A stretch of 37,348 nt of DNA, taken from contig CAYMJO010000001.1 in the NCBI GenBank assembly GCA_964391305.1, positions 24,194-61,541 on the forward strand. The letters are read 5' to 3'. The stretch comes from an uncultured Candidatus Saccharibacteria bacterium (lineage in GTDB: Bacteria > Patescibacteriota > CALEFQ01). Of this stretch, positions 71 to 10,474 are shown piece by piece (position 1 is the stretch's first letter; the number at the start of each line of letters is the position of its first letter). The position numbers were made by a program, and so were the translations under genes. Under the pieces are notes generated by a model. It saw only the letters and a list, made by a program, of their open reading frames with translations. It was not told the DNA's origin and did not search any database.

Positions 71-1039
71 TCAACATATCCTCGGCACAAGCTTTCCTTC
101 CGGCCAATCCAAGAATCTTTCCCCAAATTCCGTCTTCAAAACAACGCCTAGTCCCTTTTCAACTTTGCCAATAATGCTCGCGTCTTTAGAATATTTTTTC
201 AAAGTTTTCAAAACTTTGTCAAAGTTTTTCAAACTTGTCCCGCACACAAATCGCCCCTCGCACGCGAGTGAATACACATCAAGCCCAAGAAGCTCTGAAA
301 CCGCTCGAGTTTCCTTTTTTACAGGAATGGCTTCTTCATCTATGACAATCTTAACTCGCGACTTTTCTGCGATTTCGTTCAAGACAGAAGCAATCCCTCC
401 GCGCGTCGGATCCTTGCACGCGTGAAGATATTTTTTCACGGAATTCACCTCTTTGAAAATCGGCGCGCAATCGCTCTTCAAATTAGAATCGTAATCAAAA
501 CGCTTCGAAAGCAAAGCCACCGCATGGTCGCCGATGCTTCCAGAGAGCACAACAACGTCTCCAATCGAAAGTCCTGAATTTCTTATTAATTTTTTCGCGA
601 GACCAATACCAGAAGTGTTTATAATAATCTTATCAACGCTTCCCTTCTCCATCACTTTTGTATCGCCAGTAACAATCGGTACTTTTTCTTTTTTTGAAAT
701 TTTTGAAATAGAATCCAAAATTTTATCAAAATCTTTTTTAGAGAAACCATCTTCAATAACAAAGCTCAACGAAAGTCCAAGTGGCTCCGCTCCCTTGACT
801 GAAAGATCGTTTATAGTCCCGCATACCGCGAGTTTGCCGATATCTCCGCCAGCGAAAAATATCGGATCAACGATATATGAGTCCGTCGTGAAAACGATAT
901 ATTCGCCCCTAAACTTCAGCGCCGCCGCGTCATCGTCTTTGTCGATCCACTTTTTATCAAATTTTAAACGCCTCAAAATTTCCCCAACAAGTTCCAAAGA
1001 ATCCTTGCCTCCTGAACCATGGGACAGATTGATGTCCAT
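71..1039 (-). CDS. hypE: [NiFe]-hydrogenase maturation protein HypE
   Basis: 322-aa ORF with ATG start. PurM/AIR-synthase-like sequence with N-terminal HGSGG and the diagnostic C-terminal PRIC tetrapeptide. Follows hypC-hypD. Confidence 0.9.
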   Translation of the reverse strand: MDINLSHGSGGKDSLELVGEILRRLKFDKKWIDKDDDAAALKFRGEYIVFTTDSYIVDPIFFAGGDIGKLAVCGTINDLSVKGAEPLGLSLSFVIEDGFSKKDFDKILDSISKISKKEKVPIVTGDTKVMEKGSVDKIIINTSGIGLAKKLIRNSGLSIGDVVVLSGSIGDHAVALLSKRFDYDSNLKSDCAPIFKEVNSVKKYLHACKDPTRGGIASVLNEIAEKSRVKIVIDEEAIPVKKETRAVSELLGLDVYSLACEGRFVCGTSLKNFDKVLKTLKKYSKDASIIGKVEKGLGVVLKTEFGERFLDWPEGKLVPRIC

Positions 1040-1111
1040 AAAAATAAAAAGAAATATTTAAAAAAATTCTCTAATCATACTGGCATAAACACTTCTCATA
1101 ATCAGAAACTT

Positions 1112-2152
1112 TCAAACATTTGAACTAAACCTATATTCCACGTTGCATGCGCCTTCTCTTGAAACCATGCAAGCGCCCCGGGGATTTTCTGGCGTGCAAA
1201 TCTTCCCAAATAATTTGCACTCGGACGGTTTTTTGCAGCTGACTATAACCTGATCGCAAACACAGCCCTTATTGGAAGTTTTTGATTTAACTTTTTCTAA
1301 AATACTTCTAAAAATAACTTTTGCGTCTTGAGTTTTGTATTTTGGTTTCAATTCCAGACCTGAATCAGGAATCTTGCCAAAACCTCTCCACTCCCCGTCT
1401 TTTTTCAAAAAAACTTCATCGAGCAGATTTTGCGCGATCACATTTCCGGAAGGTCTGACCAATCGAGAATATTCATTCTCAATTTTGCTTTCACCATTTT
1501 TAATCTGTAAAAGCAGCATGTAAACTGCCGCCAAAACGTCTTCCGGCATAAAACCCGTTATAACCTGCGGTTTTCTTATTTTTTTGTAAGGCGAAAGTCC
1601 GATTATCGTGGAAACATGGCCCGGATTTATAAAGCCGTCAATTCTAATACGGGGATTCTGTGTAAGCGCAATCATCGCCGGCGGAAAAAGCTTGTGAGCG
1701 GAATAAATCTTCAAACCGCGCTTCACGGCAGACGCGGTCATCGGCGCAGTGGTCTCAAAGCCGATTCCAAAGAAAACCAAATTTGTATTTTTTTTACAAA
1801 TCTTCAAAGCGTCTTCAACGGAATAAACGGTAAAAACTTGAGCGCCTTTTGATTTCGCGCCTGCCAAACTCATCACTGTCCCCGGAACAGAAAGAACATC
1901 GCCGTAACACGCGATTGGAACGCCATTCAAAGCGAGCGCGACAATGGCATCGATGTCTTTCTGCGAAGTTACGCAAACTGGACATCCAGGCCCGGACACA
2001 AGCTCGACATTCGCGGGCATTGCTTGACGCAAACCGCTCTTTGCGATCGCTTCCGTGTGTGTGCCGCAAACCTCCATAATTCTGATACTGCGTTCCAATT
2101 CATTGGCAAGGCTTCTAATTTTATCGACAATTTTTCTAAAATCTCTTCGCAT
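1112..2152 (-). CDS. hypD: [NiFe]-hydrogenase maturation Fe-S protein HypD
   Basis: 346-aa ORF with HypD signatures CGTHT, GPGCPVC and GFETT, plus C-terminal Cys residues. Stop lies 3 nt before... its start lies 3 nt after the hypC stop. Confidence 0.9.
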   Translation of the reverse strand: MRRDFRKIVDKIRSLANELERSIRIMEVCGTHTEAIAKSGLRQAMPANVELVSGPGCPVCVTSQKDIDAIVALALNGVPIACYGDVLSVPGTVMSLAGAKSKGAQVFTVYSVEDALKICKKNTNLVFFGIGFETTAPMTASAVKRGLKIYSAHKLFPPAMIALTQNPRIRIDGFINPGHVSTIIGLSPYKKIRKPQVITGFMPEDVLAAVYMLLLQIKNGESKIENEYSRLVRPSGNVIAQNLLDEVFLKKDGEWRGFGKIPDSGLELKPKYKTQDAKVIFRSILEKVKSKTSNKGCVCDQVIVSCKKPSECKLFGKICTPENPRGACMVSREGACNVEYRFSSNV

Positions 2153-2155
2153 ATC

Positions 2156-2368
2156 TTAAATAATGCCAATCAACTTCAAAATCCCTCGCGCCTCTTTCTC
2201 ATTCAACTTGCCGATCGCAAACCCCGTATGCACTGTAACCCAATTCCCCTTTTTCAAGTTTTTCACCAATTCAATATTTACGGATTTTTTTACTCCATTA
2301 AAAGAAACAACCGCTTTCTTCTCCTTGCGGTCAATCCTGACTATTTTGCCTGGGACTGCAAGACACAT
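2156..2368 (-). CDS. hypC: [NiFe]-hydrogenase assembly chaperone HypC/HupF
   Basis: 70-aa ORF starting MCLAVPGKIV, the conserved N-terminal Cys2 motif of HypC. Immediately upstream of hypD. Confidence 0.85.
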   Translation of the reverse strand: MCLAVPGKIVRIDRKEKKAVVSFNGVKKSVNIELVKNLKKGNWVTVHTGFAIGKLNEKEARGILKLIGII

Positions 2369-2449: not shown

Positions 2450-3385
2450 TTAAATACGATTGTATTTTCTAAAGACTTCTTCTATTTTATCTTTATTTTT
2501 GAGAATTTCTTTATATCTTAAATAATTCCATTCATAAATTTTGTTAGAACCTTCCTGATAAATATATCTGATAGCTTGAAAAATCACATAAGACCATAGT
2601 TCTTCAAACTTGACTGTCTCCATAGAATCATCAAAATAACCTTCAAAAAATGCATCCAACCAAGTCTCATAAAAAATAACTTCATCTCTTTCTTTCCCGA
2701 ACCCTAGTTTTGGAAAATCAAATTTAACCAAAAATGTCATGTAAACGATCACAAATGAAAGATCAAGCAAAGAAGGTCCAATGATAATATTGTCGAAATC
2801 GATTAGAAATATTTTGCCATTACTGACTATCGTATTATAAAAACTAGGGTCACTGTGAACTAAACTCATCCGATTTAAAGATAACCTGGTTTCTTTTAAA
2901 CAATTGAGAAGTTCGGATTTAATTTTTGAATCCTTTGACTTCTTCGTAATGATTTCGACAACTTTGTCTTTTGCATTTTTCGGTTCAAATTTTGAAAAAT
3001 CCAAAATGATTCTTTTCTTATGTAATAGAAATAGCGTTTGCCCCAATTTGAAGAAATTTTTTTTTGAGGGACGCCCTTCTTGGCCTTCAATAAAATCATA
3101 TACAAAGTACATAAATCTTTTATCTTTAATATACTCTTGGCCACCGACAGTTCTGATTATATGGATAGTTGGAAAATCATTTTTTTCCAGTTCCACAAGT
3201 ACAGAAAGTCTTTTTTTATTTTCTGCGCTAAATTCAATTTTTTTTAAAATAAATTTCTGAAGACCAGCATTGAATTTATAAGCTAACCTATCACCACGCG
3301 TCTCAAGCTCCCCAAGAATTTCCACCGCAGGAAAACCATACTTTTTTTTTAAGAGCTTTTTAATGAATTGTTTTGTAATTTTCAT
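2450..3385 (-). CDS. Aminoglycoside/choline-kinase-like phosphotransferase (APH family)
   Basis: 311-aa ORF with the catalytic loop HSDPSFYN (HxDxxxxN) followed by IDFD (DFD metal-binding motif), as in the APH/homoserine-kinase-II fold. Confidence 0.65.
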   Translation of the reverse strand: MKITKQFIKKLLKKKYGFPAVEILGELETRGDRLAYKFNAGLQKFILKKIEFSAENKKRLSVLVELEKNDFPTIHIIRTVGGQEYIKDKRFMYFVYDFIEGQEGRPSKKNFFKLGQTLFLLHKKRIILDFSKFEPKNAKDKVVEIITKKSKDSKIKSELLNCLKETRLSLNRMSLVHSDPSFYNTIVSNGKIFLIDFDNIIIGPSLLDLSFVIVYMTFLVKFDFPKLGFGKERDEVIFYETWLDAFFEGYFDDSMETVKFEELWSYVIFQAIRYIYQEGSNKIYEWNYLRYKEILKNKDKIEEVFRKYNRI

Positions 3386-3476
3386 ATTTAGTTAGAAGGA
3401 TATCACATAATTAAAATTAGACGGCTACTCCCCCTAAGTTTATGTCTCAGAGAAACAGTCGTGGCTACATAGATAA

Positions 3477-3505
3477 GGGGAAGGTTCGATTTTCGAACCC
3501 TACCC
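3477..3505 (-). terminator. Hairpin after the small ORF / radical-SAM cassette
   Basis: Core stem GGTTCGA-TTT-TCGAACC (3483-3499). It extends on the minus-strand RNA with G-C and G-U pairs (GGGUAGGGUUCGA...UCGAACCUUCCCC). Lies 9 nt after the TGA of the 30-aa ORF. Tail is only weakly U-rich. Confidence 0.45.
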
Positions 3506-3513
3506 TGGATAAC

Positions 3514-3606
3514 TCAGTAGGTCTGGCTGCGAGAACTACATTTTCTGCAGTTAGCACCAGCGGACCTTGCTGTGCTGGCATTCCTGATGGGTATGAACTT
3601 CTTCAT
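3514..3606 (-). CDS. Unannotated 30-aa ORF MKKFIPIRNASTARSAGANCRKCSSRSQTY, candidate precursor peptide
   Basis: ATG at 3606 preceded by AGGAGGTG (3614-3621) with 7-nt spacing, TGA at 3514-3516. Overlaps the last 56 nt of the radical-SAM ORF in another frame. Followed by a hairpin. Too short for the supplied ORF track. Confidence 0.35.
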   Translation of the reverse strand: MKKFIPIRNASTARSAGANCRKCSSRSQTY

Positions 3607-4813
3607 GGCCGTTCACCTCCTTTCTCCGTTCAAAAGCTGAGATTGCCTCTCTCACAAAACTGGGTTGTGTAAAAAGATCTCCAGTTTCAGAATAGTTATT
3701 GCCTGGGCAGAAACAGTAAACGTAGTCACGTTCAACATTGCTACATCGCATTTCGCGGTAAAACTCCATCTCTCTGGACCTATAGATATCATCAATAGTC
3801 GAGATTAGGATGTTACCTACTGACACAGGGAGCTGGCTACAAGGTTGGACTATACCTTCCGCATTAATGGAAAATAATGCTTTTCCTGCTTCACAGATTG
3901 GTTCATTTGAATCAACGAATTCGATTCTGATTAGAAATTGTGGGTTTTCAATACAAAAGTTCCGAAACTGTTCTGGGCTGATGTTGAGACTGGATTTATC
4001 AGTCTTCACGGAATAGTACTCATTTACAATGGGCCATGAAAAATCTTGACGTATGTTCAGCCGTTCAAAGTAGTCCCGAGTTTGTCCGTGAGAATCAAAG
4101 TTTAGTGTCATAAGCGGCGTAGCTACTTCAACATAGAAACCGTGCTTCTTCAACCACAAGAGATTCCCCATAGTTTTACTCCATGACCCTTCTTTAGTCG
4201 TCACTTGATCATGTACCTTGGAATCGGATGAGTAAACCGAAGTTTGGATTCTTCCAATCCTCGTGTCAGTCGGATCAATTGTCCTAAACCATTCAGGGAT
4301 CATTTGCAGATTCGAGAATATTTCGAAAACAAATCCCATTCTCGAGATTGTTTCCACGAGAAACTCCATCTTGGTGTTAAGGAACGGCTCACCACCCGTA
4401 AGAACGATTAAGAAGACTCCCATTCTCTTGAGACGTTCAAAGAAAGCAACAATTTCCTTTTTCGACATTTGCTCTATAAAGCTAGGAGCTCTAGACTCGA
4501 CGCTTTCTTTCCCAAGATAACAGTGGAGGCAACAGAGCAGACAACGCCGATTCAGTTCTAGATTCACCATGGTCGGAAATGAGAACTCCATACCAAGATT
4601 AGCTAGATGAGTACGGCACAAACGCGTGTTGGCCTGTCCCTGTTCATTGAAGAATTCAACAGTATCCTCGGTTAAATCAGCTTCTTGGTTTCCCTTATAG
4701 GTCATCAGAAATTCGGCATCTTTCTCATTGATTTCAAAAGTCAATATCTCGCCAGAGGCGGTGTTCAGAAAATGTGCGAACTCTCCAACAACTCGATAAA
4801 TCACTCTGTTCAT
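3551..4813 (-). CDS. Radical SAM / SPASM-type peptide-modifying enzyme with N-terminal RRE (PqqD-like) region
   Basis: CLLCCLHC = CX3CX2C radical-SAM cluster motif, followed by a GGEP SAM-binding motif. C-terminal CEAGKALFSINAEGIVQPC (CX12GX4C) plus CX10CXC auxiliary-cluster Cys residues. About 85 aa before the core resemble PqqD-like RREs (HFLNTASGEILTFEINEKDAEFL). Start placed at ATG 4813, which has GGAGG 7 nt upstream; the ORF track extends to 4915. Confidence 0.85.
   Translation of the reverse strand: MNRVIYRVVGEFAHFLNTASGEILTFEINEKDAEFLMTYKGNQEADLTEDTVEFFNEQGQANTRLCRTHLANLGMEFSFPTMVNLELNRRCLLCCLHCYLGKESVESRAPSFIEQMSKKEIVAFFERLKRMGVFLIVLTGGEPFLNTKMEFLVETISRMGFVFEIFSNLQMIPEWFRTIDPTDTRIGRIQTSVYSSDSKVHDQVTTKEGSWSKTMGNLLWLKKHGFYVEVATPLMTLNFDSHGQTRDYFERLNIRQDFSWPIVNEYYSVKTDKSSLNISPEQFRNFCIENPQFLIRIEFVDSNEPICEAGKALFSINAEGIVQPCSQLPVSVGNILISTIDDIYRSREMEFYREMRCSNVERDYVYCFCPGNNYSETGDLFTQPSFVREAISAFERRKEVNGHEEVHTHQECQHSKVRWC
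3614..3621 (-). promoter_or_regulatory. Shine-Dalgarno site (AGGAGGTG) for the 30-aa ORF
   Basis: Perfect anti-SD complement 7 nt upstream of the ATG, embedded in the 3' end of the radical-SAM gene. Confidence 0.5.
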
Positions 4814-4820
4814 AATGTCC

Positions 4821-4825
4821 CCTCC
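4821..4825 (-). promoter_or_regulatory. Shine-Dalgarno site (GGAAGGAGGGG) for the radical-SAM gene
   Basis: GGAGG core 7 nt upstream of ATG 4813. Confidence 0.55.
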
Positions 4826-4998
4826 TTCCAAAGTTCGTGGTTTTGGATATGGCGACAAAGTCCGCACACAGAGTTTCCCCTGCTTAAGAACTTCAAGTTC
4901 TACAATATCCAACATCCGACCGAATCGTAAACAACGACTTACTTACATTTAAATATCTCATCTCTATCGTCCAAAACTTAGACATCTGGACTTCAAAT

Positions 4999-5355
4999 TT
5001 AACAAGTGGTATGTATCAACGCGTTAACTTTTCTTCCTCCTTCAAAAAGCTTATTGTACTTCTCAATGGCCTTTGGCGTCTCAAGCTCAATAAGTTCTAC
5101 TTCCGAAAGTTTTTTTCGAACATCATCGGTAACTTCCAAAACTCCGTTTTGCCCGGTGCCGACAACAACAATTTCTGGTTTATTGCCCAAAAGTTTTTCA
5201 ACTTCCCAATCACCAATCCTGTGCGTAGTTCCAAAAAGCTCGTCCAAGCGCGCTTCATTTCGCTCTTCAACGAAATCTCCGATAACAAGAACTTGCTTGT
5301 AAATTTTGCCGTCAATGGTGACAGAACCAAATTTTGTAGAATCTATATGCGGCAT
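4999..5355 (-). CDS. Mth938-like domain protein (DUF498 family)
   Basis: 118-aa ORF with FGSVTIDGKIY, VVVGTG and a C-terminal ALIHTTC tail, typical of the Mth938/NDUFAF3-like fold. Confidence 0.65.
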   Translation of the reverse strand: MPHIDSTKFGSVTIDGKIYKQVLVIGDFVEERNEARLDELFGTTHRIGDWEVEKLLGNKPEIVVVGTGQNGVLEVTDDVRKKLSEVELIELETPKAIEKYNKLFEGGRKVNALIHTTC

Positions 5356-5366
5356 AGATTTGCAAA

Positions 5367-6194
5367 TTATATTATGCCTCTGATCTTTTCGATCTCCGAA
5401 AATTTAAAAACTGGACCATCTTTACAAACAAGCTTTCCGCCAATACCGCAATGCTGACACTGCCCAACTCCGCATTCCATGTGCCGCTCAAACGAAATGT
5501 ATATGCTGTCATTTTTAATCCCTTTTTTATTAAGCTCGGCTATGACGAATTTGCACATCACCGGAGGACCAATCACAAAAGCCAAAGGGTCTTTTATGAT
5601 TTTTTTTGTTTCAAAAAGTTTCGTGATCAAGCCTTCGTCACATTTCAACCCGCAATTGTTTTTTTCACGTTTATCGACCGTGAGATGAACGTTAAATTCA
5701 TCTTTCCACGTCTCGAGCTCTTTTTTATACAAAAAATCCCTCTCGCATTTTGCTCCGTACAACAGCTGAATATCTTTGTAATTGTCCGGATTTTCTAAAT
5801 AATCCAAAATCACGGCTCGCAGCGGAATAATTCCAATTCCGCCAGCAACCAAGAGAACATTTTTGCTTTTGAGCTCTTTCATCGGAAAGCCCCTACCAAG
5901 CGGTCCCCGAACGCCAACAATATCGTTAATCTCGCTCTCGTGCAATCTGCCAGTAAGCTTTCCGGCTTTTCGAACGCAAATTTCAAATGTTTCAGGCCTG
6001 CAAGAGCACGACCCATATCCAAGAGGAGCTTCCCCAAATCCTGGAATCGAGAACATCAAAAATTGCCCGGGAATAAAAAAGAAATTTTTTTGATCATCGG
6101 GATCCGTATATCGCAAAACAAAAGACTTCACGTCCAAAGCTTCGTCTCTGATTGCAATAATTTTCGCTGGTCTGGGTTTATAAATATTTTTCAT
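5367..6194 (-). CDS. FAD/NAD(P)-binding oxidoreductase with C-terminal [2Fe-2S] site (sulfhydrogenase gamma HydG / AsrB / PyrK-like)
   Basis: 275-aa ORF with a ferredoxin-reductase-type N-terminus (RPAKI..., GQFLMF), GGIGIIP nucleotide-binding loop and C-terminal CGVGQCQHCG...C cluster motif. Confidence 0.75.
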   Translation of the reverse strand: MKNIYKPRPAKIIAIRDEALDVKSFVLRYTDPDDQKNFFFIPGQFLMFSIPGFGEAPLGYGSCSCRPETFEICVRKAGKLTGRLHESEINDIVGVRGPLGRGFPMKELKSKNVLLVAGGIGIIPLRAVILDYLENPDNYKDIQLLYGAKCERDFLYKKELETWKDEFNVHLTVDKREKNNCGLKCDEGLITKLFETKKIIKDPLAFVIGPPVMCKFVIAELNKKGIKNDSIYISFERHMECGVGQCQHCGIGGKLVCKDGPVFKFSEIEKIRGII

Positions 6195-6236
6195 GACTTT
6201 TATTAAATCCGATCCCGCCGCGGCGGGATCGCGCTT

Positions 6237-7208
6237 TTATTCTTTTATACACTCAATATTCTCCTTGATATTAATCCCCACTGGACATGCCGCGGTGCAT
6301 CTTCCACATCCAACGCATCCCCGCATATTGTACATAGCAGGATCTCTGACAAATTTGTGTTCATACCAGAAATAAATCCGCTTTTCGGTTGAATTCAAAA
6401 ATTTGTAGCCGCCGGCAATCCTTGAGAATTCAGGAAAAAAGCATGTATCCCATTCTCTTTTGCGACGAGCCTCGCCCGATTGCACCTTTTCTTCGTCAAT
6501 CATCCGAAAGCAATAGCATGTGGGACAAACCAAAGTGCACTTGCCGCAATCGATGCAACGCGCGCCGAGATCTTTCCAAAGAGCTGTATTGTAAGACTTC
6601 TCCATCTTTTCTTTTATCGCAAGCATTTCTTCATCAATTTTTCCTTCCTGCAAGGGTCCCGCGTACGCCACGTTTTCATAGTCTCTGTATCCAAATTTTT
6701 CAAGCAATTTCTGCCCGTCTTCCGATCCTGTTATAATTTTGACTTTTCCGTTTCTTTTTTCCAAAAAAATATCAAACTGTACATGTTCTAAAATATTTTC
6801 TTCGAATCTGCCCTGAAATTCCACAAGCTCTCTTTCGTCTTTAGGCGCCAAAGCTTGGCCGATTATAATCGTGTTTCTTTTTCTCTCCTGATAATACGCA
6901 TCGTCTTTAAAAACTTGGTTGTACAAATCCAGCGCCTTCAAATCCAAAATAGTCGGTCCAATAAGAACTTGTCTCTTTGAAAATTTTATTTTTTTCAAAA
7001 CATCTCCATGTATGTTAAAAAGAGTTTCACTCGCCGCCAAAAAATATTTACGCCAAGAATAATACGTTACTTGTCCATCAAGCACAACTCGCTTCGGATC
7101 AAAAATTCTTCGAGAAACCCGAAGACCACCTTGCATCACGGGAGCAAAAATTCTATAACCCTCTTTTAATAAAAAAGAGATAAATTGCCTGAAATTTTCA
7201 GCGGTCAT
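6237..7208 (-). CDS. 4Fe-4S dicluster subunit (sulfhydrogenase beta HydB / AsrA-like)
   Basis: 323-aa ORF with CIDCGKCTLVCPTCYC and CVGCGRCTAACP ferredoxin-type motifs. Immediately upstream of the HydG-like gene. Confidence 0.75.
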   Translation of the reverse strand: MTAENFRQFISFLLKEGYRIFAPVMQGGLRVSRRIFDPKRVVLDGQVTYYSWRKYFLAASETLFNIHGDVLKKIKFSKRQVLIGPTILDLKALDLYNQVFKDDAYYQERKRNTIIIGQALAPKDERELVEFQGRFEENILEHVQFDIFLEKRNGKVKIITGSEDGQKLLEKFGYRDYENVAYAGPLQEGKIDEEMLAIKEKMEKSYNTALWKDLGARCIDCGKCTLVCPTCYCFRMIDEEKVQSGEARRKREWDTCFFPEFSRIAGGYKFLNSTEKRIYFWYEHKFVRDPAMYNMRGCVGCGRCTAACPVGINIKENIECIKE

Positions 7209-7768
7209 TAAAATGTTGTAATTGTTCTACTTGTTCTAATTGTTCTAAATTTTGGAAATTTTCTGAAATATTCTCGCTGACGCTTTCCCTCGACCACTTT
7301 AGCTCCACCTATTTCTCCTAATCTTGAATCCGAATAGATAAATATATAGACAACATTCTTATTATGAGAAAATAACAATCTTGCTGCGTCTTCTACACGA
7401 CCGGACATCAAAAGTTGCCGATTTTTATCAAAAAGACAACTTGTTACGCACCTTACTTGTCTATCATTTAAATATACAATCCCTTCTAAAACATCTAAAA
7501 TCGGTTTTATAATATTATCAACATCAGCTCTAATCCCCATCGATAATTTCGTCGACCAGTATATCTCAACCTCAATATCGCTTTCTTTTACAGGAGTATA
7601 AATTTTATACTTCTGCATTTCGACACAAGCAGATTCTTGAATATTCCGTTTGTACCTTAGCTTGATTTTTCTCTTATATTTACATTTCGAATTCACAGTA
7701 AGAGGCTTAGTAACCACACTAAATTTATAGACTGGAACTTCTTGTTTTTTATGTTTAAATGAATGCAT
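7208..7768 (-). CDS. RusA-family Holliday-junction resolvase-like protein
   Basis: ADVDNIIKPILDVLEGIVYLNDRQV fits the RusA pattern DxDNxxKxxxDxL...DxQV. Its TAA overlaps the hydB-like ATG (TAATG). The true start may be internal (MQKYKIY). Confidence 0.5.
   Translation of the reverse strand: MHSFKHKKQEVPVYKFSVVTKPLTVNSKCKYKRKIKLRYKRNIQESACVEMQKYKIYTPVKESDIEVEIYWSTKLSMGIRADVDNIIKPILDVLEGIVYLNDRQVRCVTSCLFDKNRQLLMSGRVEDAARLLFSHNKNVVYIFIYSDSRLGEIGGAKVVEGKRQREYFRKFPKFRTIRTSRTITTF
7224..7240. repeat. Left copy of a 17-bp inverted repeat (GTTCTACTTGTTCTAAT) inside three tandem TTGTTCTA units
   Basis: Exact reverse complement of 9277-9293. 7222-7248 reads TTGTTCTAc TTGTTCTAa TTGTTCTAa. Confidence 0.6.
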
Positions 7769-9294: not shown

Positions 9295-10017
9295 TTAAGT
9301 GAGCAACATCCAAATCCCAAACCCAATTAAAATTACTCCCATCGAAAGCTTCATCCATTTTTTGCTGCGATGCTCCCATTCTTTCAGATCGACCATTTTC
9401 TTGCCAGACCAAACTAAAATAAGAATCACGATGAGAGGCAATACGAACAAAAAATTATAAAGCCCAAGATAGCCAACTATCCCGACCTTGCTTACATCTG
9501 AACGCGAAAGCACGTCAAGCACGCCGGCATAAAGCGGAAGAGAACACGGCACTTCAAAGATCGTGACAAGGACAGCGAGAACAACAGTTGAAAGCAAAGT
9601 TGTTTTGGAAACCCATCTCTGCAAGAACGGACGCACTTTTTTTGATATCTCAAGGCTTGGACCGACACCGTAAAACGCAAAATCCTTGACATTGATAGCG
9701 CCAGCGATTATTAGTATGCCGCCGAGAACCAAATGAATAAGATTTGAAATTGCCGCGTACCGCGATGTATGGCTGAACTCGACCAGAACACGATAAAACA
9801 AAAGCCCGACTATAAAATACGTGGCAAAAACAACCGCGATGTAAACGACTCCCGTGCGCGGAACATCTTTTCTCCTGCCCGCAAACACTATCAAATATCC
9901 GAGAAGAAAAACAAGCATACCAATTGCGCACGGGTTTACACCGTCTGCCAATCCCAATAACAGTGCCAAGCGCAATTGACTCTGACGTAAGTCCACCCTT
10001 TGCGAAAGTCCTATCAT
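9295..10017 (-). CDS. CcdA/DsbD-family transmembrane thiol-disulfide electron transporter
   Basis: 240-aa polytopic membrane ORF with GVNPCA in the first helix and EVPCSLPLY in a later helix, the two conserved Cys motifs of the DsbD_2/CcdA family. Confidence 0.75.
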   Translation of the reverse strand: MIGLSQRVDLRQSQLRLALLLGLADGVNPCAIGMLVFLLGYLIVFAGRRKDVPRTGVVYIAVVFATYFIVGLLFYRVLVEFSHTSRYAAISNLIHLVLGGILIIAGAINVKDFAFYGVGPSLEISKKVRPFLQRWVSKTTLLSTVVLAVLVTIFEVPCSLPLYAGVLDVLSRSDVSKVGIVGYLGLYNFLFVLPLIVILILVWSGKKMVDLKEWEHRSKKWMKLSMGVILIGFGIWMLLT

Positions 10018-10474
10018 CTTCCCAACCGGAATTTACCTTATACCCTTCGTTTTCCCAAGCTGGAAATCCGCCCTCGAGAATCTTTATGTTGCGATAACCC
10101 AAATCATGAAGCTTCTTCGCCGCAGAAAGGCTCGCTTGGCATTCCGTCGCGCTGCAATACGTGACGATCTCTTTATCTTTCGCAACCTTTGCCTCGGCAT
10201 TCTTTTTGACATCGCTCAAGGGAAGACTCAACGCTCCCTGAATGTGCGCATCAACATATTCAACCCCTTGACGAACATCGAGAATGGCCAAATTCTTTTC
10301 ACCCGCGTCTATCTTCGTTTTAAGATCTGAAACAGAAATATAAACTGCTTCATACTCACAATCTTCCGAAGCATCGACATCGCAGGGCTTAACCGCGTCG
10401 GCATTTTTATAAAATAAAAAAACGCTAAAAATTATAAGAAGACAAACTGTTACTTTTTTAAAGGTAAAATTCAT
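9650..10474 (-). CDS. Secreted rhodanese-domain sulfurtransferase; ORF runs on out of frame into ccdA
   Basis: Signal peptide, then a rhodanese fold (ILDVRQGVEY..., active-site loop YCSATECQAS, GGFPAWENEGY). Only about the first 150 aa (roughly 10020-10474) look genuine. The remaining 120 aa are an R/C-rich read-through overlapping ccdA. Confidence 0.65.
   Translation of the reverse strand: MNFTFKKVTVCLLIIFSVFLFYKNADAVKPCDVDASEDCEYEAVYISVSDLKTKIDAGEKNLAILDVRQGVEYVDAHIQGALSLPLSDVKKNAEAKVAKDKEIVTYCSATECQASLSAAKKLHDLGYRNIKILEGGFPAWENEGYKVNSGWEDDRTFAKGGLTSESIALGTVIGIGRRCKPVRNWYACFSSRIFDSVCGQEKRCSAHGSRLHRGCFCHVFYSRAFVLSCSGRVQPYIAVRGNFKSYSFGSRRHTNNRWRYQCQGFCVLRCRSKP

What the first reader, a model, noticed from the sequence alone, without database searches (positions are those of the whole stretch)
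3477..4829. Orphan radical-SAM/SPASM maturase with RRE-like N-terminus plus an overlapping SD-driven 30-aa Cys/Ser-rich ORF ending in Tyr: candidate undescribed RiPP cassette
Seen in the sequence:
- The 420-aa enzyme has CX3CX2C (CLLCCLHC), a GGEP motif, a CX12GX4C auxiliary-cluster motif and further C-terminal Cys residues.
- It has an N-terminal stretch of about 85 aa whose pattern (HFLNTASGEILTFEINEKDAEFL) resembles PqqD-type RiPP recognition elements.
- An AGGAGGTG motif sits inside the last codons of the enzyme, 7 nt before an ATG. That ATG opens MKKFIPIRNASTARSAGANCRKCSSRSQTY-stop (3514-3606), which overlaps the enzyme's last 56 nt in another frame.
- A G-C/G-U hairpin follows 9 nt after its stop.

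Established knowledge: SPASM/twitch radical-SAM enzymes with an RRE modify small peptides encoded next to them, as in sactipeptides, ranthipeptides, PQQ and mycofactocin.

Inference: the small ORF is the substrate. Its CxxC pair and many Ser/Thr are plausible thioether acceptor and donor sites. Its C-terminal Tyr recalls MftA (...GVY), whose terminal Tyr is the MftC target. I do not recognise the peptide as any named family.
Basis: partly seen in the sequence, partly recalled or inferred. Interest (0 to 1): 0.8.

Follow-up and report, generated by a model that had tools for sequence, protein, structure and literature searches.

The report
Unannotated radical-SAM peptide cassette in CPR bacteria
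A tiny 30-residue gene hidden at the end of a radical-SAM enzyme gene is real and is kept next to that enzyme in about 40 ultra-small (CPR/Patescibacteria) bacterial lineages, so the pair is very probably an undescribed enzyme-plus-precursor peptide system of a known general type.

Summary
The enzyme (window 3551-4813, minus strand) is a radical-SAM protein. Its nearest solved relative is SkfB, the sporulation-killing-factor thioether synthase.

It has a predicted three-strand, three-helix N-terminal domain, which is the topology of a RiPP recognition element (RRE). It has only three conserved C-terminal cysteines, so it is Twitch-like rather than full SPASM.

The 30-aa ORF (3514-3606) is a real gene:
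- An equivalent ORF follows the enzyme in all 39 non-redundant homologous loci.
- Consensus: MKK..IW.S...CTxCASRSSTH, with an invariant Cys and Arg.
- It has a Shine-Dalgarno site, saturated synonymous change, and usually a hairpin after its stop.
- Gene callers miss it: 19 of 20 exact sequences are absent from a 15-billion-protein collection, and no NCBIfam model or paper was found.

All identifiable hosts are Patescibacteria. Partner genes differ by lineage: an APH-type kinase (as in the window), a nucleotidyltransferase-like protein, or a UPF0020 methyltransferase.

The 56-nt overlap is incidental. The MftA-like terminal Tyr idea fails, because Tyr ends only 3 of 37 peptides.

Most likely this is a leader-dependent Cys crosslinking (thioether) system, but the chemistry is untested. 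It is a new variant of a known kind, of moderate interest.

The parts
3551..4813 (-). Radical-SAM peptide maturase gene (420 aa): N-terminal RRE-like domain, radical-SAM core, Twitch-like auxiliary-cluster domain
   Evidence: Pfam Radical_SAM 3.4e-16 and SPASM 2.8e-5. There are 92 homologues at 39-54% identity. AF2 model pLDDT 89. Top Foldseek hits are SkfB, SuiB and CteB. The PDB profile search gives SkfB at 3e-16.
4821..4829 (-). Shine-Dalgarno-like GGAAGGAGG upstream of the enzyme start codon
   Evidence: Read directly from the sequence. The start at 4813 agrees with the N-termini of homologues.
4583..4813 (-). N-terminal domain (aa 1-77), three strands then three helices: probable leader-binding RRE
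   Evidence: AF2 secondary structure is E4-9, E12-17, E23-26, H30-38, H49-56, H63-77, both in the whole protein and in the isolated domain. There is no PqqD HMM hit. Foldseek on the isolated domain is not significant, but TbiB1 and CteB RREs rank 3-5. The strands align in register with the true PqqD domain of outgroup L067.
3914..4576 (-). Radical-SAM core (aa 80-300) with CX3CX2C (C91, C95, C98) and GGE motif
   Evidence: These residues are invariant in 82 of 82 full-length family members.
3614..3913 (-). Twitch-like C-terminal domain (aa 301-400) with conserved C307, C325 and C369
   Evidence: Only these three C-terminal Cys are 100% conserved. CX2CX5C is absent in 76 of 82 members. The C307...G...C325 hairpin aligns with the same motif of SkfB, whose auxiliary cluster has three Cys ligands and an open site (PMC6231123).
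3551..3613 (-). Non-conserved enzyme tail (aa 401-420 plus stop) that runs over the peptide gene
   Evidence: pLDDT is below 50 for residues 402-420. Homologues end at or near this point, and tails have variable length and sequence.
3614..3621 (-). Shine-Dalgarno AGGAGGTG for the small ORF, embedded in the enzyme's last conserved codons
   Evidence: An SD-like motif is present in 35 of 39 loci. The same nucleotides are read as KGG, KEV or ERR in different enzymes, so the constraint is on the nucleotides.
3514..3606 (-). Precursor-peptide gene, 30 aa: MKKFIPIRNASTARSAGANCRKCSSRSQTY
   Evidence: An equivalent ORF occurs in 39 of 39 non-redundant loci. The alignment is A3. Core codons give pS 0.81 and pN 0.26. 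TGA is a true stop in this genome.
3550..3606 (-). Presumed leader part of the peptide (aa 1-19), Lys/Arg/Ser-rich with the (P/T/A)-(I/V)-(W/R/K)-x-(S/A) motif
   Evidence: Moderately conserved N-terminal block followed by a variable-length linker in alignment A3. The leader/core split is an inference.
3517..3549 (-). Presumed core (aa 20-30) CRKCSSRSQTY; family consensus CTxCASRSSTH
   Evidence: The second Cys and the Arg three residues later are invariant (37 of 37). The first Cys is present in 36 of 37, and the Ser at +5 in 34 of 37.
3476..3506 (-). Stem-loop 8 nt after the peptide stop
   Evidence: -18 kcal/mol, z -3.8. 28 of 37 homologous loci have a strong hairpin at the same place, many of those inspected followed by a T-run. 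The window copy lacks the T-run and is not scored as a terminator.
2450..3385 (-). APH-type kinase gene (311 aa), lineage-specific partner of the cassette
   Evidence: Pfam APH 1.5e-6 and RIO1 5e-6. The catalytic HxDxxxxN and DxD motifs are conserved. It lies directly downstream of enzyme plus peptide in 12 loci with otherwise different neighbours. Only one kinase locus (L086) lacks the enzyme.

Best explanation
This is a RiPP-type cassette specific to CPR/Patescibacteria.

Shown here:
- The enzyme and a 22-34-aa peptide are co-transcribed and translationally coupled. The peptide's ribosome-binding site sits in the enzyme's last codons.

Inferred:
- A stem-loop after the peptide gene probably ends or attenuates the transcript.
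- The peptide has a basic, Ser-rich leader with a short hydrophobic motif, and an 11-residue C-terminal core, CxxC-(A/S)-(S/T)-R-S-S-x-(H/K/Y).
- The enzyme is built like the sactisynthase SkfB: an N-terminal leader-binding (RRE-like) domain, a radical-SAM barrel, and a Twitch-type domain holding one auxiliary Fe-S cluster with three protein Cys ligands.

Proposed mechanism (inferred):
1. The N-terminal domain captures the leader as an added beta-strand.
2. The invariant second Cys of the core approaches or ligates the open site of the auxiliary cluster.
3. The 5'-deoxyadenosyl radical abstracts a hydrogen from a nearby core residue. The invariant Arg at +3 or the conserved Ser at +4/+5 are the obvious candidates.
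4. A Cys-to-carbon thioether ring forms, with a mass change of -2 Da.
5. In the window's lineage the adjacent APH-type kinase then probably phosphorylates a Ser or Thr of the core. Other lineages carry a nucleotidyltransferase-like protein or a methyltransferase in its place.

The biological role of the product is unknown.
For: Gene reality and linkage:
- The ORF is present after the enzyme in 39 of 39 non-redundant loci from Paceibacteria, Parcubacteria, Wolfebacteria, Jorgensenbacteria, Saccharibacteria and Dojkabacteria.
- An SD-like motif occurs in 35 of 39 loci. The commonest arrangement is ATGA stop/start overlap.
- Core codons show pS 0.81 and pN 0.26. The invariant Arg is encoded by 6 different codons.
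- All three stop codons are used at the same aligned end.
- A hairpin follows in 28 of 37 loci.

Enzyme class:
- Pfam Radical_SAM plus SPASM.
- The AF2 model has pLDDT 89 and a beta3-alpha3 N-terminal domain.
- Foldseek top hits are SkfB, SuiB and CteB, all RRE-bearing RiPP maturases, aligned over almost their full length.
- The PDB profile search puts SkfB first at 3e-16, seven orders of magnitude better than the next hit.
- Exactly six Cys are 100% conserved in 82 members. The C307/C325 hairpin aligns with SkfB's.
- SkfB has three Cys ligands and an apparent open site on its auxiliary cluster (PMC6231123).

Outgroup L067 (29% identity, E 4e-48):
- It has a bona fide PqqD domain, a full SPASM and a related downstream ORF ending CKRCGCASGSSSGG.

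Peptide logic:
- In SkfA the thioether donor is the second Cys of a CxxC at the start of the core (PMC8172795; SkfA sequence verified).
- Here the second Cys is the invariant one.

Kinase linkage.
Against: - No experiment or expression data exists. Substrate status and chemistry are inferred.
- The N-terminal domain gives no PqqD HMM hit. On its own it has no significant structural match (best E 0.27).
- The enzyme reaches no NCBIfam equivalog: SkfB model 39 bits against a cutoff of 300, AlbA model 55 bits against 850.
- The peptide's resemblance to SkfA is not statistically significant (hhalign E 0.055).
- The core ends 7 residues after the donor Cys, so an SkfA-like +8 acceptor is impossible.
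- No protease or exporter is conserved near the cassette, which is unusual for a secreted bacteriocin.
- One locus (L005) has lost the first Cys.
- The kinase gene lies beyond the hairpin and is absent from most lineages.
Confidence: 0.72

Rival explanations
1. Same maturase-precursor pair, but the chemistry is not a thioether. The enzyme could make a carbon-carbon or ether crosslink, epimerise residues, or oxidise the Cys. Alternatively the product could be a peptide-derived redox cofactor used inside the cell, in the manner of mycofactocin or PQQ, rather than a released peptide.
For: - RRE-rSAM-SPASM/Twitch enzymes perform many different reactions. SuiB, the second-best structural hit, makes a Lys-Trp C-C bond.
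- No exporter or leader protease is conserved nearby.
- CPR genomes are small, and retention across several classes could fit a housekeeping-like role.
- The window copy sits among redox genes: Hyp maturases and Fe-S/FAD subunits.
Against: - The invariant residue is a Cys, and the closest relative by sequence is a thioether synthase.
- The terminal residue is variable (H, K or Y), so MftC-type chemistry on a terminal Tyr is excluded for the family.
- No aromatic residue is conserved in the core for a cyclophane or C-C crosslink.
- The genomic neighbourhood varies from locus to locus, so the hydrogenase context is not conserved.
- The cassette is sporadic: 11 of the 185,579 GTDB species representatives scanned, all 11 in CPR. 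That argues against an essential cofactor.
Confidence: 0.2
2. The small protein is real but is not a substrate. It would be a conserved accessory partner of the enzyme. Examples are a metal- or cluster-binding mini-subunit using CxxC plus His, or an electron-transfer or regulatory peptide.
For: - CxxC followed seven residues later by His (28 of 37) could bind a metal.
- The enzyme's auxiliary cluster has only three conserved protein ligands.
- One peptide gives a weak hit to the FmdB zinc-ribbon model (E 0.008, 1 of 36).
Against: - A single CxxC cannot form a zinc ribbon. The first Cys is lost in L005, and His is replaced by Lys or Tyr in 9 of 37 peptides.
- The layout of a conserved short N-terminal motif, a variable linker and a conserved C-terminal block is that of leader plus core.
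- The enzyme carries a predicted peptide-binding domain, and its relatives all modify peptides.
Confidence: 0.07
3. The 30-codon ORF is a chance open frame. Its apparent features would be by-products of the enzyme's C-terminal coding sequence or of an RNA element.
For: - In the window it overlaps the enzyme by 56 nt.
- It is not called by gene finders.
- No Rfam or tRNA feature explains the region either.
Against: - In 32 of 39 loci the ORF overlaps the enzyme by at most 4 nt or lies wholly downstream of it, and it is still conserved.
- Amino acids are conserved through saturated synonymous change.
- The start codon, SD and aligned stop are all conserved.
- The enzyme tail that overlaps it is unconserved and predicted disordered.
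Confidence: 0.01

Closest known systems
SkfB / SkfA (sporulation killing factor, Bacillus subtilis; sactipeptide)
   Same: - SkfB is the best hit in both the sequence-profile and structure searches.
- Same three-part build: RRE-type N-domain, radical-SAM barrel and Twitch domain with one auxiliary cluster on three Cys (PMC6231123).
- The precursor core begins with CxxC followed by A-S-(K/R)-S: SkfA CMGCWASKS against family CTKCASRS (SkfA sequence verified).
- In SkfA the second Cys is the thioether donor (PMC8172795). Here the second Cys is the invariant one.
   Different: - Only about 19% identity. The NCBIfam SkfB model scores 39 bits against a cutoff of 300.
- Peptide similarity is not significant.
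- The precursor is 22-34 aa rather than 55, and the core ends 7 residues after the donor Cys, so no +8 acceptor is possible.
- There is no second disulfide Cys, no head-to-tail cyclisation partner, and no skfC/E/F-like protease or exporter nearby.
- The gene order is enzyme then peptide.
- Hosts are CPR bacteria, not Firmicutes.
CteB / SCIFF and other ranthipeptide or sactipeptide maturases (AlbA, PapB)
   Same: - RRE-bearing radical-SAM enzymes that crosslink Cys of small Cys-rich precursors. CteB is among the top structural hits.
- The substrate Cys ligates an open site of the auxiliary cluster in CteB (PMC6231123).
- Leaders are Lys-rich.
   Different: - Those enzymes have full SPASM domains with two auxiliary clusters. 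This family keeps only three C-terminal Cys.
- The peptides match no NCBIfam model, SCIFF included.
- The core has two Cys and no Asp, Glu or Thr pattern like CX3D.
PqqD-rSAM-SPASM maturase with a Cys/Ser/Gly-rich peptide in locus L067 (uncharacterised metagenomic outgroup)
   Same: - Nearest relative outside the family (29% identity, E 4e-48).
- Also followed by a small ORF with a basic leader and a CxxC-x-C-A-S-x-S-S-S tail.
- Followed by a UPF0020 methyltransferase, the same partner family as in the Saccharibacteria and Dojkabacteria members.
   Different: - It has a recognisable PqqD domain (4e-12) and a complete CX2CX5CX2C SPASM segment.
- Its peptide lacks the invariant Arg.
- It is itself unnamed and uncharacterised.
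   Same: A radical-SAM enzyme with auxiliary clusters acts on the C-terminal residues of a small adjacent peptide.
   Different: - MftA has an invariant C-terminal Val-Tyr. Here Tyr ends only 3 of 37 peptides.
- MftC uses a separate RRE protein, MftB.
- The MftC model is not among the best 25 NCBIfam hits.
RiPP kinases (class III-V lanthipeptide kinases of the APH fold; lasso-peptide C-terminal Ser kinases)
   Same: A stand-alone APH-fold kinase with intact catalytic motifs is encoded beside a Ser/Thr-rich precursor. This comparison rests on general knowledge of those systems.
   Different: - No lyase or cyclase partner is present.
- The kinase matches only general APH, CotS and RIO models.
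- It occurs in only one sub-lineage of the family, and its target is unknown.

Membership tests
Radical SAM superfamily (PF04055) | CX3CX2C motif for the SAM-binding [4Fe-4S] cluster | tested here: met
   C91, C95 and C98 are conserved in 82 of 82 full-length members.
Radical SAM superfamily (PF04055) | Pfam model above its gathering score, and a GGE SAM-binding motif | tested here: met
   60.3 bits against a cutoff of 29.5. G140, G141 and E142 are invariant.
SPASM domain (PF13186 / TIGR04085) | Pfam SPASM model above its gathering score | tested here: met
   24.7 bits against a cutoff of 21.5, covering only profile positions 1-53 of 67.
SPASM domain (PF13186 / TIGR04085) | Seven-Cys pattern including CX2CX5CX3C, which binds a second auxiliary cluster | tested here: not met
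   Only C307, C325 and C369 are conserved. CX2CX5C is absent in 76 of 82 members. The outgroup L067 still has it.
Twitch subclass (SkfB, BtrN, MoaA type) | Beta-hairpin CX9-15GX4C plus Cys after the following helix, giving one auxiliary cluster site | tested here: met
   C307-X12-G320-X4-C325 aligns with the same SkfB segment. C369 (and C367 in the window) corresponds in position to SkfB C385/C387 (PMC6231123). Actual cluster content is not testable here.
RiPP recognition element (PqqD-like, PF05402) | Sequence match to the PqqD/RRE profile | tested here: not met
   No PF05402 hit for the whole protein at E <= 0.1, nor for 17 isolated N-terminal domains at E <= 10.
RiPP recognition element (PqqD-like, PF05402) | Winged helix-turn-helix: a three-stranded antiparallel sheet followed by three helices | tested here: met
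   AF2 gives E4-9, E12-17, E23-26, H30-38, H49-56 and H63-77 at pLDDT 86-89.
RiPP recognition element (PqqD-like, PF05402) | Structural or profile similarity to proven RREs | tested here: inconclusive
   Isolated-domain Foldseek: best E 0.27, with TbiB1 RRE at ranks 3-4 and CteB at rank 5. hhalign against the PqqD domain of L067 aligns strands 1-3 in register, pairwise E 0.0097, probability 4%. Whole-protein hits to SkfB, SuiB and CteB span nearly full length.
Sactipeptide systems (SkfB, AlbA type) | Membership of the curated enzyme families | tested here: not met
   NCBIfam rSAM_skfB gives 39 bits against 300, and AlbA gives 55.4 against 850.
Sactipeptide systems (SkfB, AlbA type) | Cys sulfur to alpha-carbon thioether in the product | not testable with these tools
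   Needs MS/MS and NMR of the modified peptide.
Sactipeptide systems (SkfB, AlbA type) | Adjacent small precursor with a leader and a Cys-containing core | tested here: met
   Present in 39 of 39 loci. Alignment A3 shows an N-terminal motif, a variable linker and a conserved CxxC core.
SCIFF / ranthipeptide precursors | Match to the curated SCIFF peptide model; six-Cys core | tested here: not met
   None of 36 peptides hits any NCBIfam peptide model except one weak FmdB hit. Almost all peptides have only two Cys.
Mycofactocin (MftA/MftC) | Invariant C-terminal Val-Tyr on the peptide; MftC equivalog; separate MftB | tested here: not met
   The terminal residue is His in 28, Lys in 6 and Tyr in 3 of 37 peptides, with no Val before it. 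The MftC model is not among the best 25 hits. No MftB-like gene is nearby.
Anaerobic sulfatase-maturating enzymes | Full SPASM with two auxiliary clusters, no RRE, and the substrate motif (C/S)-x-(P/A)-x-R | tested here: not met
   The domain is Twitch-like and an N-terminal extra domain is present. Arg lies at +3 from the invariant Cys and +6 from the first Cys, not +4. anSME ranks below SkfB, SuiB and CteB.

The most novel reading that the evidence does not exclude
The cassette makes a new class of very short, strongly cationic peptide that is specific to CPR/Patescibacteria. Its defining feature would be a new crosslink made by a one-auxiliary-cluster (Twitch) enzyme: a small ring between the invariant Cys and the invariant Arg three residues later. 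The peptide would then be decorated on its Ser/Thr-rich tail by interchangeable partner enzymes (phosphorylation, nucleotidylation or methylation, depending on lineage). It would serve the episymbiotic lifestyle, for example as a signal or weapon towards the host cell, rather than as a classical bacteriocin.
Probability: 0.15. Interest if true: 0.8.

Novelty: new variant of a known kind. Interest (0 to 1): 0.55.

Why it matters
CPR/Patescibacteria have tiny genomes and are usually described as poor in specialised metabolism. A peptide-modification cassette kept across Paceibacteria, Parcubacteria, Wolfebacteria, Jorgensenbacteria, Saccharibacteria and Dojkabacteria would give a concrete, clonable handle on a natural product or signal from this uncultured radiation.

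- **Annotation gap:** the precursor gene is invisible to current annotation. Of 20 exact sequences, 19 are absent from 15 billion predicted proteins. Surveys of biosynthetic clusters in CPR genomes may therefore be missing or mis-scoring this family.
- **Enzymology:** the enzyme is a naturally minimised relative of SkfB, with a very short substrate of 22-34 aa and an 11-residue core. That would make it a convenient system for studying how Twitch-type maturases work.
- **Tailoring enzymes:** the kinase, nucleotidyltransferase-like protein and methyltransferase swap at the same position. This is a small natural experiment in tailoring-enzyme exchange.

None of this changes the general picture of radical-SAM RiPP biosynthesis.

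Tried and rejected
- **tRNA or structured RNA behind the GGTTCGAAAATCGAACC hairpin.** ARAGORN and Rfam found nothing in the window.
- **The other overlapping ORF (3465-3581, 38 aa).** It has no SD and no counterpart in homologous loci. Rejected.
- **PqqD HMM detection.** Negative for the whole protein and for 17 isolated N-terminal domains. The profile search of that domain against PDB sequences gave only spurious hits.
- **Foldseek on the isolated N-terminal domain.** Not significant.
- **Database searches with the peptide.**
  - The alignment was too short for the search for homologous proteins.
  - I used exact look-ups instead.
- **Kinase searches.** The single-sequence search found only the window protein itself. 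A profile of seven kinases was needed.
- **Context look-up of the window's own enzyme.** Not on record.
- **Checking my recalled SkfA sequence.** tblastn in plasmids and phages gave no match. An exact look-up then confirmed it as SKFA_BACSU.
- **Profile comparison of the peptide family with SkfA.** CxxC aligned in register, but E was 0.055, so this is a lead and not evidence.
- **Literature searches.** Four searches, on CPR plus RiPP/radical-SAM terms and on the motif strings themselves, found no description. The library lacks most subscription journals.
- **Terminator scan of the window.** It found none, because the hairpin lacks a T-run.
- **Hydrogenase link.** This was suggested by the window's neighbours. 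I rejected it because no other locus shares that context.
- **Alternative genetic code reading TGA as sense.** Rejected because HypD and HypE end correctly on TGA.


Full report
**1. What is in the window**

On the minus strand an ORF runs from 4915 to 3551.
- The start that agrees with all homologues is the ATG at 4813, preceded by GGAAGGAGG. This gives 420 aa.
- AGGAGGTG at 3614-3621 lies 7 nt before the ATG at 3604-3606.
- That ATG opens MKKFIPIRNASTARSAGANCRKCSSRSQTY-stop (3514-3606). It overlaps the enzyme's last 56 nt.
- A stem-loop at 3476-3506 begins 8 nt after the stop. It folds at -18 kcal/mol, z = -3.8.
- No tRNA or Rfam family lies anywhere in the window.

**2. The enzyme**

*Family scans.*
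- Pfam gives Radical_SAM (3.4e-16) and SPASM (2.8e-5, just over its cutoff, covering only the first 53 of 67 profile positions).
- No NCBIfam equivalog is approached. The best is ScmE at 69 bits against a cutoff of 400. AlbA scores 55 against 850 and SkfB 39 against 300.

*Homologues and hosts.*
- A protein search found 92 clusters at 39-54% identity, about 400 aa each, mostly unnamed.
- In a scan of one genome per GTDB species, the 11 true family members are all Patescibacteria: Paceibacterota, Parcubacteria, Jorgensenbacteria, Wolfebacteria, Saccharibacteria and Dojkabacteria.
- A metagenome scan added about 40 more loci.

*Structure.*
- An AlphaFold model built on 26 homologues is confident (pLDDT 89).
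- Its N-terminal 77 residues form three strands followed by three helices.
- Residues 402-420 are below pLDDT 50.
- Foldseek against the PDB ranks SkfB, SuiB and CteB first, aligned over nearly their whole length. These are the three RRE-bearing radical-SAM RiPP maturases discussed in PMC6231123.
- A sequence profile of the family against PDB chains puts SkfB first at 3e-16. The next hit is at 2e-9.

*Cysteines.*
- Across 82 full-length members exactly six Cys are 100% conserved: C91, C95 and C98, plus C307, C325 and C369.
- The CX2CX5C segment that binds the second SPASM cluster is missing in 76 of 82.
- The C307...C325 hairpin aligns with the same SkfB segment.
- SkfB's Twitch domain holds one auxiliary cluster on Cys351, Cys385 and Cys387, with an apparent open site (PMC6231123).
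- The family is therefore Twitch-like, not a complete SPASM.

*The RRE question is only partly settled.*
- No PqqD HMM hit was found for the protein or for 17 isolated N-domains.
- The isolated domain folds confidently (pLDDT 86, same topology).
- Its structure search is not significant. The best E is 0.27, although the RREs of TbiB1 and CteB rank 3-5.
- The nearest outgroup, L067 (29% identity, E 4e-48), has a clear PqqD domain (4e-12) and a full SPASM.
- The family's strands 1-3 align with that PqqD domain in register, but weakly.

**3. The small ORF is a real, conserved gene**

*Presence.*
- In the first three homologous loci inspected, an ORF of 28-34 aa starts a few nucleotides after the enzyme stop. 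It reads MKKFTPIRKASDKKDTLCPGCASRSSSH, MKKSVKKPIKIVWSSTEKSKASSCAGCASRSSTH or MKKSVKKSVKTVWSSTKASSHGGCRSRNISK.
- A scripted census of all family loci found the ORF in every one. This includes loci that at first seemed to lack it, because it starts with GTG or TTG there.
- That makes 39 non-redundant loci.

*Translation signals.*
- Start codons are ATG 33, GTG 5 and TTG 1.
- An SD-like motif is present in 35 of 39.

*Conservation (alignment A3).*
- Consensus xKKIxxIWxS...CTxCASRSSTH.
- The second Cys and the Arg three residues later are invariant.
- The first Cys is present in 36 of 37 peptides.
- Ser at +5 is present in 34 of 37.

*Selection.*
- Over the 11 core codons, pairwise synonymous difference is saturated (pS 0.81) while non-synonymous difference is 0.26.
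- The invariant Arg is written CGC, CGT, AGA, CGA, CGG and AGG.
- All three stop codons are used at the same aligned end.
- TGA, used only in the window, is a genuine stop there, because HypD and HypE end on it.

*Downstream hairpin.*
- A strong hairpin follows the peptide stop in 28 of 37 loci, and many of those inspected carry a T-run.
- The window's copy lacks the T-run and is not scored as a terminator.

*Annotation.*
- The peptides are essentially unannotated. 19 of 20 exact sequences are absent from a 15-billion-protein collection, and the one present has no name.
- No NCBIfam model matches them.
- The motif strings and CPR/RiPP term combinations found no paper.

**4. The overlap is incidental**

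- The distance from enzyme stop to peptide start ranges from -56 to +95 nt.
- The mode is -4 (ATGA, 10 loci), and 14 loci fall between 0 and +7.
- Only 7 loci overlap by 14 nt or more, and the window is the extreme.
- Enzymes end in KKGG, RKEV or KERR. These are the same AAAGGAGG nucleotides read in three frames, so the constraint is on the ribosome-binding site and not on the enzyme's residues.
- Longer tails share only the frame-shadow of the peptide's MKK (for example ...EKV...). They differ otherwise, and the window's tail is predicted disordered.

**5. Neighbours**

An all-against-all clustering of flanking ORFs shows no conserved protease or transporter. It does show three lineage-specific partners.

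*(a) An APH-type kinase directly downstream, as in the window (2450-3385).*
- Pfam APH and RIO1.
- HxDxxxxN and DxD motifs are intact.
- It is about 30% identical to the others, yet in the same position.
- A profile search found 26 kinase clusters.
- Of four new contexts, three have the enzyme and/or the peptide immediately upstream. One (L086) has the kinase between dnaK and dnaJ, with no enzyme on the 4.8-kb contig.

*(b) A 150-168-aa protein with a GS...DxD signature.*
- It gives weak hits to nucleotidyltransferase families: NTP_transf_5, DUF2204 and aminoglycoside 2''-adenylyltransferase.
- It is present in 11 loci.

*(c) A UPF0020/RMKL-type methyltransferase.*
- It is present in 8 loci of the Saccharibacteria/Dojkabacteria branch.
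- The same family appears, fused to HEAT repeats, next to the outgroup cassette L067.

Some well-covered loci (L049, L052, L042) have none of the three. The minimal conserved unit is therefore enzyme plus peptide. The wider context differs from locus to locus. The window's position between hypCDE and Fe-S/FAD subunit genes is not a family feature.

**6. Mechanism**

Shown:
- Gene pair, coupling signals and selection on the peptide.
- Enzyme class and nearest relatives.
- Three conserved auxiliary Cys.

Inferred from established knowledge of SkfB, AlbA and CteB (PMC6231123, PMC8172795):
1. The N-domain binds the leader.
2. The invariant Cys is the donor.
3. A hydrogen is abstracted from a nearby core residue.
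4. A thioether forms, with the auxiliary cluster's open site engaging the thiolate.

In SkfA the donor is the second Cys of a CxxC that opens the core (CMGCWASKSIAM...; Cys4-Met12, PMC8172795; sequence verified). The CPR core (CTKCASRSSTH) looks similar, and its second Cys is the invariant one. The similarity is not statistically significant, however. The CPR core is also too short for a +8 acceptor, so the ring would have to be smaller. Arg +3 and Ser +4/+5 are the conserved candidates. The roles of the kinase, nucleotidyltransferase-like protein and methyltransferase as tailoring enzymes acting on the Ser/Thr-rich tail are inference from gene linkage only.

**7. Comparison and novelty**

- It works like a sactipeptide or ranthipeptide system and is closest to SkfB/SkfA.
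- It is not a member of any curated family tested: SkfB, AlbA, SCIFF, MftC/MftA or anSME.
- The MftA analogy is rejected because Tyr ends only 3 of 37 peptides.
- I rate it a new variant of a known kind. The variant features are a new, CPR-restricted precursor family; a reduced one-auxiliary-cluster maturase derived from PqqD-rSAM-SPASM ancestors; and interchangeable partner enzymes.
- Interest is moderate. Radical-SAM RiPP cassettes are numerous and the logic is familiar. A conserved, unannotated one spread across the CPR radiation is a useful and directly testable lead.

Noticed in passing
window 71-2368 (-) and 5367-7208 (-): The cassette sits between hypE, hypD and hypC (71-2368) and two genes resembling the Fe-S and FAD/NAD subunits of a soluble hydrogenase or sulfhydrogenase (5367-6194 and 6237-7208). 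No other family locus shares this context, so I treat it as coincidental.
   Followed up: partly
window 4999-5355 (-): A DUF498/Mth938-domain protein (118 aa, Pfam 5.5e-16) lies directly upstream of the enzyme. It is not among the neighbours conserved in other loci.
   Followed up: partly
window 7208-7768 (-): A RusA-like Holliday-junction resolvase (Pfam 8.7e-9). This gene is typical of prophages and lies close to the hydrogenase subunit genes.
   Followed up: no
window 9295-10474 (-): Two long ORFs on the same strand overlap by about 370 nt. One is a rhodanese-domain protein with an N-terminal hydrophobic segment (9650-10474). The other is an SfLAP-type membrane protein (9295-10017). This could be a frameshift or a fused gene.
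   Followed up: no
L003 3494-4930, 8621-9730, 9782-11393, 11469-12563: In this 585-kb CPR contig the enzyme-peptide-kinase unit is surrounded by three further radical-SAM genes (one of them SPASM-type) and several called small genes of 51-68 aa. This is possibly a larger peptide-modification island.
   Followed up: no
L067 3671-7271: An outgroup cassette of unknown host. It has a PqqD-rSAM-SPASM enzyme, then a 39-aa ORF MKNNYKKPKLKRIVSVRKQENERGMCKRCGCASGSSSGG, then a 667-aa HEAT-repeat protein fused to a UPF0020 methyltransferase. It is also unnamed in NCBIfam.
   Followed up: partly
L086 3048-3953: One member of the partner-kinase family sits between dnaK and dnaJ, with no radical-SAM gene or peptide on the 4.8-kb contig. 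The kinase is therefore not always adjacent to the cassette.
   Followed up: partly
L005 7202-7297 (same as L006): This peptide, MKKSVKKSVKTVWSSTKASSHGGCRSRNISK, has His in place of the first Cys and a divergent tail. The enzyme and kinase beside it look intact. It may be a decaying copy or a tolerated variant.
   Followed up: no
L008 3623-4936 (-) and L037 1685-2674 (+): Second, distantly related radical-SAM genes lie within a few kb of the cassette in some loci.
   Followed up: no
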